DNA of 32,000 bases. It comes from Metamycoplasma auris (GTDB taxonomy: Bacteria; Bacillota_I; Bacilli_A; Mycoplasmatales; Metamycoplasmataceae). Below the pieces are notes generated by a model. That model was not told the DNA's origin. It saw only the letters and a list, made by a program, of their open reading frames with translations, and did no database searches. The stretch is from positions 8,304 to 40,303 of the forward strand of contig NZ_QKUB01000006.1 of assembly GCF_003253435.1 (NCBI RefSeq), given 5' to 3'. Positions 30,302 through 30,333 of this stretch are shown one piece after another; the stretch's first letter is position 1, and the number at the start of each line of letters is the position of its first letter. Made by a program: the position numbers and the translations under genes.

Positions 30302-30333
30302 TTTTTTTTTTTTTTTTTTGAAGGTCATACAAT
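30302..30333 (+). promoter_or_regulatory. T18 homopolymer, 8 nt, then TACAAT -10 box upstream of lipoprotein paralog B
   Basis: T18 at 30302-30319 and TACAAT at 30328-30333, with the ATG 69 nt downstream. This is the longest homopolymer in the window. Confidence 0.55.

What the first reader, a model, noticed from the sequence alone, without database searches (positions are those of the whole stretch)
30302..30333. T18 homopolymer placed over the -35/spacer position of a lipoprotein promoter: candidate ON/OFF switch
Seen in sequence: T18 (30302-30319) is by far the longest homopolymer in 32 kb; all others I found are 9 nt or shorter. It is followed by G plus 7 nt and TACAAT (30328-30333), and the paralog B ATG is 69 nt downstream. 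Paralog A has the same layout with only T8 (28589-28596), then 9 nt and TATAAAAT. Established knowledge: in M. hyorhinis vlp genes a promoter homopolymer between -35 and -10 changes length by slipped-strand mispairing and toggles transcription. Inference: tract length here sets promoter geometry. The only -35-like hexamer upstream (TTAGAC, 30294-30299) is about 28 nt from the -10 box, which is far from optimal spacing. Paralog B is therefore probably phase-variable and may be OFF in the sequenced clone.
Basis: partly seen in the sequence, partly recalled or inferred. Interest (0 to 1): 0.7.

Follow-up and report, generated by a model that had tools for sequence, protein, structure and literature searches.

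The report
Poly-T tract in lipoprotein promoter
An 18-T run sits just upstream of the likely promoter of a mycoplasma surface-lipoprotein gene, in a 5' cassette that related genes share with runs of other lengths, so it is a credible but unproven and unsurprising candidate switch.

Summary
It is far longer than any other homopolymer in the window (next T9).

The window is a Metamycoplasma (TGA=Trp, 28% GC). Its nearest named relative is M. auris 15026.

The tract belongs to a conserved 5' cassette: upstream module, homopolymer, G/GG, TA[ACT]AAT 8-11 nt downstream, a 24-83 nt leader. Four of the five genes also share the signal peptide MKKSLA.... Five lipoprotein genes in the window and M. auris carry it, with T8, T10, T14, T18 and A13. 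In 172 kb of related loci, the only four runs of 10 nt or more are these cassette tracts. Two M. auris contig ends abut the expected tract position.

This is the anatomy of known mycoplasma promoter-repeat contingency loci (vlp, maa2, vpb). I file it as a new member of a known kind.

No switching has been shown. No reads, strains or transcripts were available. The M. agalactiae vpma promoter T-tract is a documented non-switching counter-example.

Four of the five cassettes have their nearest -35-like hexamer 28-34 nt from the -10; the T8 gene has only a weak one, at about 19-20 nt. Interest is modest.

The parts
30302..30319 (+). T18 homopolymer, the candidate hypermutable tract. It spans roughly -21 to -38 relative to a start site inferred from TACAAT.
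   Evidence: It occupies the same cassette position as T10/T14/A13 in M. auris and T8 in paralog A.
30328..30333 (+). TACAAT, the best -10 candidate for paralog B.
   Evidence: It aligns with TAAAAT of paralog A and of two M. auris cassettes, TATAAT of the A13 cassette, and TACAAT at the head of M. auris contig 2. It lies 8-11 nt after the tract in every case. No start site has been mapped.
30294..30299 (+). TTAGAC, a -35-like hexamer 28 nt upstream of the -10. Its role is doubtful.
   Evidence: The motif TTTTAGACT also occurs at the end of M. auris contig 3. Comparable hexamers lie 28-34 nt away in three M. auris cassettes; paralog A has only a weak one at about 19-20 nt (sequences).
30251..30263 (+). 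TTTCAGTGATTTT, the conserved upstream module of the cassette. It lies inside a weak hairpin at 30243-30279.
   Evidence: The same TTTCAGTG(T)TTTT module precedes T10, T14 and A13 in M. auris. The hairpin is not better than shuffles (z = -0.5).
30403..31497 (+). Paralog B, a 364-aa predicted lipoprotein (genetic code 4) with an intact reading frame.
   Evidence: It is 56% identical to the partial M. auris protein P0002. No Pfam or NCBIfam family matches. The model shows a 3-helix bundle, a disordered Pro-rich linker and a beta domain.
28589..28600 (+). T8 followed by GTTT, the short and interrupted tract at the same cassette position upstream of paralog A.
28608..28613 (+). TAAAAT, the -10 candidate of paralog A. 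It aligns with TACAAT of B.
28671..30023 (+). Paralog A, a 450-aa predicted lipoprotein. It shares the N-terminal module with B and has a coiled-coil C-terminus.
   Evidence: It is 34% identical to M. auris P0006.
30077..30112 (+). AT-rich 12-bp hairpin plus T-run, the likely intrinsic terminator of paralog A. It would make B a separate transcription unit.
   Evidence: -9.7 kcal/mol, z = -3.9, and 0 of 200 shuffles fold as well.

Best explanation
T18 is the homopolymer element of a conserved 5' expression cassette used by a family of modular surface-lipoprotein genes in this Metamycoplasma and in M. auris.

The cassette reads: upstream module TTTCAGTG...; a pure A or T run; G/GG; a -10 box TA[ACT]AAT 8-11 nt further on; and a leader of 24-83 nt. 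In four of the five genes the signal peptide is MKKSLA...ISC; the A13 gene has a different one.

Proposed mechanism: an uninterrupted 18-nt run slips during replication, and Mollicutes lack MutS/MutL mismatch repair (established knowledge). A population therefore holds a spread of tract lengths. The run fills about -21 to -38. Each base gained or lost shifts and rotates all upstream DNA relative to the -10, changing how well RNA polymerase engages. Transcription of paralog B would then be switched or graded independently of paralog A. A's tract is short and interrupted (T8GTTT), so it should be much more stable.

Shown here: the tract, its position, the shared cassette, the different length at each family member, and a separate terminator for A.

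Inferred: the start site, length heterogeneity within a culture, and any effect of length on expression. Whether T18 is an ON or an OFF length cannot be told from sequence.
For: - T18 is real and exceptional.
- The cassette is shared. A and B align through the tract, the -10 and the first 20 nt of CDS.
- M. auris 15026 carries the same cassette with T10 (L082 5921-5930), T14 (L082 10152-10165) and A13 (L083 7236-7248). Each is followed by GG and TA[AT]AAT 9-10 nt later.
- In 172.5 kb of Metamycoplasma loci, the only homopolymers of 10 nt or more are these four cassette tracts. 96 kb from five other species near serS contain no run of 9 or more.
- Both A and T runs occupy the same slot. This argues for a length or spacer role rather than a sequence-specific or U-tail role.
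- M. auris contig 3 ends at ...CAAAATCGGCC, exactly where T10/T14 begin elsewhere. Contig 2 starts at CTCCATACAAT, 83 nt before a family ATG. That genome was assembled from 454 and Illumina reads with Newbler (PMC3707572).
- Paralog A has its own strong terminator hairpin (z = -3.9).
- The B reading frame is intact.
- Precedents exist: vlp, maa2 and vmm promoter repeats switch transcription (PMC2268961; PMC10502178). In M. bovoculi, vpbA-E each have a poly-T promoter (PMC3931370).
Against: - There is no direct evidence of length heterogeneity or of any expression effect. No reads, second strain or transcript data could be reached.
- Window proteins are singletons in their 90% clusters.
- A13 in M. 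auris is identical in two assemblies of the same strain. This shows only a stable consensus.
- No convincing -35 or extended -10 partner exists. -35-like hexamers sit 28-34 nt from the -10 in four of the five cassettes, and only a weak one at about 19-20 nt in paralog A. The distance from the TTTCAGTG module to the -10 (48-77 nt) shows no common helical phase (my count sequences). What the tract is spacing is therefore unknown.
- The M. agalactiae vpma promoter T-tract, immediately upstream of its -10, was shown not to generate OFF variants (PMC2268961).
- The M. auris contig breaks could equally be caused by the repeated cassette and signal-peptide sequence.
Confidence: 0.55

Rival explanations
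1. Static promoter element. The T-run is an AT-rich, rigid spacer or UP-like stretch that helps a -10-only mycoplasma promoter. Its length drifts neutrally between paralogs and strains without switching expression.
For: The vpma promoter T-tract of M. agalactiae sits immediately upstream of the -10 and gave no OFF variants in phase-locked mutants (PMC2268961). No usable -35 partner is found in four of the five cassettes, and only a weak one in paralog A (sequences). A13 is identical in two assemblies of M. auris 15026.
Against: Homopolymers of 10 nt or more occur only in this cassette across 172 kb, which points to selection for long pure runs rather than mere AT-richness. A and T runs are interchangeable at the site. 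An 18-nt pure run will slip whether or not this is selected for. Paralog A shows that a short, interrupted run can occupy the same slot.
Confidence: 0.27
2. The tract is transcribed. The real promoter lies upstream, or there is read-through from paralog A. U18 in the leader would then act through terminator-like pausing or transcriptional slippage, or as the T-tail of an insulating terminator.
For: A GGCA...TGCC hairpin plus T6 lies 20 nt upstream (30243-30286). In M. auris a short GGCC...GGCC hairpin (T14 cassette) or a longer hairpin (contig 3 end, z = -2.9) directly precedes the tract position.
Against: The window hairpin is no better than shuffles (z = -0.5) and is not adjacent to T18. The terminator scan did not call it. 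The A13 cassette carries an A-run in the same slot, which cannot serve as a U-tail. Paralog A already has a strong terminator 200 nt upstream. The conserved TA[ACT]AAT lies downstream of the tract.
Confidence: 0.08
3. Decaying or runaway tract. B's promoter lost the conserved CGGCC-type motif that flanks the tract in other members, and the run expanded without function. B would then be a silent or weakly expressed relic.
For: B lacks the (C)CGCC/CGGCC motif that directly precedes the run in the other four cassettes. It has the longest run and an extra ~22 nt between the TTTCAGTG module and the tract.
Against: The 364-aa frame is intact and full length relative to its M. auris counterpart. The -10 and leader are conserved.
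Confidence: 0.07
4. Sequencing or assembly artefact. The tract is much shorter, or the two flanks are wrongly joined.
For: Long homopolymers are error-prone. Related M. auris assemblies break at this position.
Against: Both flanks match the cassette layout seen independently in M. auris, where T10, T14 and A13 were assembled through. Another part of the window is 100% identical to an independent Logan assembly. Only the exact length is uncertain.
Confidence: 0.03

Closest known systems
maa2 of Mycoplasma (Metamycoplasma) arthritidis (Washburn et al. 1998, cited in PMC2268961)
   Same: Same phylogenetic group (hominis group). A surface-lipoprotein gene whose transcription is reported to be switched by base insertion or deletion in the promoter spacer (PMC2268961). 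From my memory of the 1998 abstract, the repeat is a poly-T run just upstream of the -10.
   Different: No detectable protein homology: the search with B returned only M. auris relatives. maa2 is a single gene with large internal repeats (from memory), not a multi-gene cassette. Switching is demonstrated there and not here. The primary paper was not available.
vlp genes of Mesomycoplasma hyorhinis (Citti and Wise 1995)
   Same: Several lipoprotein genes each carry a conserved 5' region with a promoter homopolymer and a conserved signal peptide. Each is transcribed separately, and ON/OFF state follows indels in the run (PMC10502178; PMC2268961).
   Different: The vlp run is poly-A and lies between recognisable -35 and -10 boxes. 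Here the run is poly-T (poly-A in one M. auris member) with no usable -35. There is no protein homology. Vlp proteins vary through C-terminal repeats, whereas these proteins swap whole C-terminal domains.
vpbA-E array of Mycoplasma bovoculi (PMC3931370)
   Same: [quoted passage not shown] It was predicted from sequence to be a contingency locus. The level of evidence is the same as here.
   Different: A different species group. No homology was detected. Tract positions and lengths were not compared.
T-tract of the vpma promoter, Mycoplasma agalactiae (PMC2268961)
   Same: A homopolymeric T tract immediately upstream of the -10 of a variable-lipoprotein promoter.
   Different: It was shown experimentally not to produce OFF variants. 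vpma switching is done by Xer1 site-specific inversion. No recombinase gene or inverted-repeat system was seen next to A or B in the window.
vlhA (GAA)n promoters of Mycoplasma gallisepticum (PMC6258824)
   Same: A variable repeat flanked by conserved sequences upstream of many lipoprotein genes, with the number differing per paralog and per strain and only one length active. It is a model for a repeat that is not a simple -35/-10 spacer.
   Different: It is a trinucleotide repeat about 40 nt upstream of the start site, with a proposed dedicated factor or alternative sigma. Here the repeat is a mononucleotide run abutting the -10 region.

Membership tests
Promoter simple-sequence-repeat contingency locus of mycoplasma lipoproteins (vlp / maa2 / vmm type) | A perfect repeat tract long enough to slip, located inside the promoter between or over the -35 and -10 positions | tested here: met
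   The pure T18 ends 8 nt before the conserved -10 candidate TACAAT. The -10 is assigned by conservation, not by start-site mapping.
Promoter simple-sequence-repeat contingency locus of mycoplasma lipoproteins (vlp / maa2 / vmm type) | A recognisable -35 element whose distance to the -10 is set by the tract | tested here: not met
   The nearest -35-like hexamers are 28-34 nt from the -10 in four cassettes and a weak one is at about 19-20 nt in paralog A. In the T10 cassette the spacing would be 18 nt even with no tract (sequences).
Promoter simple-sequence-repeat contingency locus of mycoplasma lipoproteins (vlp / maa2 / vmm type) | The downstream gene encodes a surface-exposed lipoprotein | tested here: met
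   The signal peptide has a Cys at position 26 (MKKSLAFLLAATSVATITTPILTISC). M. auris homologues are annotated as predicted lipoproteins. Surface exposure itself is inferred.
Promoter simple-sequence-repeat contingency locus of mycoplasma lipoproteins (vlp / maa2 / vmm type) | A conserved 5' cassette (promoter plus signal peptide) shared by several family members, with a different tract length at each | tested here: met
   Five cassettes carry T8, T10, T14, T18 and A13. The first 20 nt of CDS are identical in five genes: A, B, the T10 and T14 genes, and P0006, whose tract position lies off the contig end. The A13 gene has a different signal peptide.
Promoter simple-sequence-repeat contingency locus of mycoplasma lipoproteins (vlp / maa2 / vmm type) | Tract length varies at high frequency within a clonal population or between strains at the same locus | not testable with these tools
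   No reads and no second strain are available. The only same-locus comparison (A13, the same M. auris strain assembled twice) is identical. Contig ends at the tract position in M. auris are suggestive only.
Promoter simple-sequence-repeat contingency locus of mycoplasma lipoproteins (vlp / maa2 / vmm type) | Transcript or protein ON/OFF state correlates with tract length | not testable with these tools
   This needs expression data.
Vlp, MAA2 or Vpb protein families (homology) | Significant sequence similarity of the encoded protein to a family member | tested here: not met
   The search of 5.8 billion proteins with B returned only the window's A and B and six M. auris proteins. No Pfam or NCBIfam family was found. 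The word-based prefilter limits sensitivity.
Site-specific inversion systems (vpma / vsp / vsa type) | An adjacent recombinase and a single promoter moved between silent genes by inversion | tested here: not met
   No recombinase ORF lies among the three lipoprotein genes. A and B each carry their own promoter cassette on the same strand. The only mobile-element gene nearby is an IS3-type transposase fragment.
Intrinsic terminator | A stable GC-containing hairpin immediately followed by the T-run | tested here: not met
   The 22 nt before T18 are unpaired. The upstream hairpin is no better than shuffles (z = -0.5), and the scan did not call it.

The most novel reading that the evidence does not exclude
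The cassette may be a clade-specific switch that is not a -35/-10 spacer device. In this reading the homopolymer, T or A interchangeably, sets the distance between the -10 and a conserved GC-containing upstream motif (TTTCAGTG...CGGCC) bound by a dedicated factor. This resembles what has been proposed for the (GAA)12-dependent vlhA promoters. The switch would coordinate combinatorial expression of a whole set of modular surface proteins in the M. auris lineage. Paralog B, which has lost the CGGCC motif and carries the longest run, would be a variant with altered or lost control.
Probability: 0.12. Interest if true: 0.55.

Novelty: new member of a known kind. Interest (0 to 1): 0.3.

Why it matters
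If the tract switches paralog B, this little-studied Metamycoplasma lineage has its own family of independently switchable surface lipoproteins. The family is built on a shared promoter and signal-peptide cassette with exchangeable C-terminal domains. That would add a documented poly-T system in the hominis group alongside maa2.

It would also flag these proteins as variable antigens, and therefore poor single targets for serology or vaccines.

In practice, such tracts explain assembly gaps and annotation differences between strains. The finding does not open a new mechanistic question unless the missing -35 partner turns out to reflect a different mode of control.

Tried and rejected
- **Exact 31-mer downstream of the tract against genome contigs:** no match. 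The source genome is not in that collection.
- **serS-anchored scan of genome contigs:** it named the nearest relatives (M. auris 86%, M. enhydrae 79%, M. arginini 78%). Their serS neighbourhoods hold no long homopolymers, and none of them carries the 20-nt signal-peptide start of the A/B family.
- **Metagenome scan with the 20-nt signal-peptide start:** 28 hits, none mycoplasmal.
- **Look-ups of the window's own B protein and of M. auris P0007 and P0009:** not on record. No independent assembly across T18 could be obtained.
- **Profile search with the N-terminal module:** it hit the candidate cap and added only two M. auris proteins.
- **Pfam and NCBIfam:** no family for A or B.
- **AlphaFold model plus Foldseek against PDB:** no significant match, best E 0.12. 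A three-helix-bundle likeness to SCIN is too generic to use.
- **Terminator reading of the tract:** rejected.
- **A consistent -35 distance or helical phase between the upstream module and the -10 across cassettes:** none found (from sequences).
- **Orthology of the M. auris contig 3 tail with the A-B intergenic region:** only the upstream gene's terminator and short motifs align, so no orthology is claimed.
- **Rfam:** only two tRNAs in the window.
- **Primary papers on maa2 and the classical reviews:** not held. Tract lengths for ON and OFF in maa2 and vlp are therefore not quoted.

Full report
**1. The observation**

The window is a Mollicutes sequence. It has 28% G+C, and its reading frames are continuous only with TGA read as Trp.

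T18 occupies 30302-30319. It is followed by G, then AAGGTCA, then TACAAT at 30328-30333. The next ATG is at 30403 and TTAGAC is at 30294-30299, all exactly as described.

It is the longest homopolymer in the window by a factor of two. The others are one T9, nine T8 and seven A8. Extrapolating the observed run-length decay predicts about 0.008 runs of this size in the window. Fitted over 172.5 kb of related loci, the figure is about 0.0002. Only the exact length of such a run in an assembly is uncertain.

**2. Context**

Downstream of serS (25321-26586) lie three same-strand lipoprotein genes under genetic code 4:
- 26673-28409: 578 aa, with (S/N)PQPQP repeats.
- 28671-30023: paralog A, 450 aa.
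- 30403-31497: paralog B, 364 aa.

An IS3-type transposase fragment follows at the window end.

A and B share the first ~170 residues at 39% identity. This stretch comprises a signal peptide with Cys26, a helical module, a Pro-rich linker and a WN(S/A)(I/A)F..S.TG.D motif. Beyond it, the two proteins are unrelated.

Neither protein matches a Pfam or NCBIfam family. A model of B shows three parts:
- a confident three-helix bundle (residues 32-98);
- a disordered linker (101-212);
- a beta-rich domain (220-364).

The model has no significant PDB match.

Paralog A has its own strong terminator-like hairpin at 30077-30105 (z = -3.9). B is therefore probably a separate transcription unit.

**3. Where it comes from**

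The nearest named relative is Metamycoplasma auris 15026. SerRS is 86% identical, and the closest homologue of B is 56% identical.

The window's proteins are singletons in their 90% clusters. No second strain is available. A Logan contig from run SRR4235353 is 100% identical to window 2610-10219.

**4. The comparative result that matters**

M. auris 15026 carries the same 5' cassette at other family members.

| Locus | Sequence around the tract | Tract to ATG |
|---|---|---|
| L082 5921-5930 | ...TTTCAGTGTTTTTGATGATTTTTTTTGCCAAAATCGGCC-T10-GGTTAGGGA-TAAAAT | 70 nt, then ATGAAAAAAAGTCTTGCATT |
| L082 10152-10165 | same layout with T14 | 70 nt |
| L083 7236-7248 | ...TTTCAGTGTTTTTGGACTAATTTCCGCC-A13-GGAAATTATG-TATAAT | 24 nt, to a lipoprotein with a different signal peptide |
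| Window A | ...TTTTAGTGATGAAAATGTAAAATTTCGCC-T8-GTTTCCGGTTA-TAAAAT | 74 nt |
| Window B | TTTCAGTGATTTT...TTTTAGACTA-T18-GAAGGTCA-TACAAT | 83 nt |

- The -10-like hexamer TA[ACT]AAT stays 8-11 nt after the run in all five cassettes.
- Across 172.5 kb of Metamycoplasma DNA, the only homopolymers of 10 nt or more are these four cassette tracts. That DNA comprises the window, four M. auris loci and five other species.
- The five other species' serS neighbourhoods (96 kb) have no run of 9 or more.
- Both A-runs and T-runs fill the slot. This fits a length or spacer function and argues against a U-tail or a sequence-specific site.

Two M. auris contig ends fall at the tract position. Contig 3 stops at ...TTTTTTAGACTCAAAATCGGCC, which is the motif that precedes T10 and T14. 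Contig 2 starts at CTCCATACAAT, 83 nt before the ATG of the A-like gene P0006. That genome was assembled from 454 mate pairs and Illumina reads with Newbler.

The breaks are suggestive of long or heterogeneous runs. The repeated cassette itself could also have caused them.

**5. Mechanism**

The anatomy is that of mycoplasma promoter-repeat contingency loci. Indels in the promoter spacer switch transcription of vlp (M. hyorhinis), maa2 (M. arthritidis) and vmm (M. mycoides) (PMC2268961; PMC10502178). In M. bovoculi, each of five paralogous vpb genes has a poly-T promoter that the authors read as a contingency locus (PMC3931370).

My best explanation is that T18 slips at high frequency. Mollicutes lack MutS/MutL mismatch repair (established knowledge). 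The run fills roughly -21 to -38, so slippage changes the geometry between the -10 and whatever lies upstream. That would switch or grade transcription of B independently of A. A's interrupted T8GTTT should be far more stable.

Shown: the tract, its position, the cassette, and the per-gene length differences. Inferred: the start site, heterogeneity within a culture, and any effect on expression.

**6. What is not supported**

The spacings from the nearest -35-like hexamer to the -10 are:
- B (T18): TTAGAC, 28 nt.
- M. auris T10: TTGCCA, 28 nt.
- M. auris T14: TTGGCC, 33 nt.
- M. auris A13: TTGGAC, 34 nt.
- Paralog A (T8): only a weak match (TTTCGC/TTCGCC), about 19-20 nt.

In the T10 cassette the spacing would be 18 nt only if the tract were absent. 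Either all members are off, or a canonical -35 is not the partner. The second is more likely, because Mollicutes promoters depend mainly on the -10 (established knowledge). The A13 member also has an extended -10 (TGTTATAAT).

The distance from the TTTCAGTG module to the -10 ranges from 48 to 77 nt with no common helical phase. The expression state of T18 cannot be read from sequence.

The M. agalactiae vpma promoter also has a T-tract immediately upstream of its -10, and that tract was shown not to yield OFF variants (PMC2268961). A static-element reading therefore remains a serious rival (about 0.27).

The other rivals are weaker:
- Terminator or leader reading: the nearby hairpin is no better than shuffles and is not adjacent to the run.
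- Runaway tract in a decaying promoter: B lacks the CGGCC motif, but its frame is intact.
- Assembly artefact: both flanks match a cassette seen independently.

**7. Comparison, novelty and verdict**

It works like vlp, maa2 and vpb. It is not a protein homologue of any of them. One classical defining feature, a -35 positioned by the tract, was tested and not met. The two decisive features, length variation in populations and correlation with expression, could not be tested.

I found no publication describing this family or its tracts in M. auris or its relatives; 13 papers mention the species and none addresses this.

The finding is a new member of a known kind. It is a sound candidate contingency locus, strengthened by the comparative cassette evidence, but it would not surprise a mycoplasmologist. 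Interest is 0.3. Confidence that tract length modulates B expression is about 0.55.

Noticed in passing
L082 5921-5930 and 10152-10165; L083 7236-7248 (M. auris 15026): T10, T14 and A13 sit in the same promoter cassette upstream of three other lipoprotein genes. The T14 gene encodes a coiled-coil lipoprotein of more than 850 aa. The A13 promoter has an extended -10 (TGTTATAAT) only 8 nt before its ATG, which implies a nearly leaderless mRNA.
   Followed up: partly
L002 end (10363) and L083 start (M. auris contigs 3 and 2): Two draft-genome contig ends coincide with the expected tract position of family promoters. Contig 4 (L001) starts inside the repeated N-terminal module of the B counterpart.
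   Followed up: partly
L008 11283-11299, 13792-13806, 17636-17650 (Mesomycoplasma moatsii, next to serS): A17 and A15 lie 2-4 nt upstream of TATAAT boxes of lipoprotein genes, and a T15 lies on the opposite strand. This looks like a vlp-like poly-A promoter array in another species.
   Followed up: no
window 26824-26964: 12/36-nt tandem repeats encode the (S/N)PQPQP repeat block of the 578-aa lipoprotein. The M. auris orthologue has a different, shorter Pro/Asn-rich block. This is a candidate for size variation.
   Followed up: no
window 1681-1687: A G7 run (GAT GGG GGG GAT, motif ITDGGD) lies inside the Bmp/PnrA-like substrate-binding lipoprotein gene 1480-2799. It is the longest G/C run in a 28% GC window and could be frameshift-prone.
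   Followed up: no
window 30712-30837 (B residues ~104-145): The Pro-rich linker of B is 79% identical to the linker of the M. auris MIP Ig-specific protease (P0007). Unrelated surface proteins appear to share a module across species.
   Followed up: no
window 31761-31997 (- strand), with an element end probably near 31660: This is the C-terminal integrase-core (rve) part of an IS3-type transposase, running off the window immediately downstream of paralog B.
   Followed up: partly
window 30496-30696 (B residues 32-98): The conserved N-terminal module is predicted as a confident three-helix bundle. Its only structural likeness is a non-significant one to staphylococcal complement inhibitor SCIN (2qff, E 0.6).
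   Followed up: partly
window 2610-10219 = L115 (Logan, SRR4235353): An independent assembly of a public run is 100% identical to this stretch of the window. That run probably holds the reads needed to measure the T-tract length distribution.
   Followed up: partly
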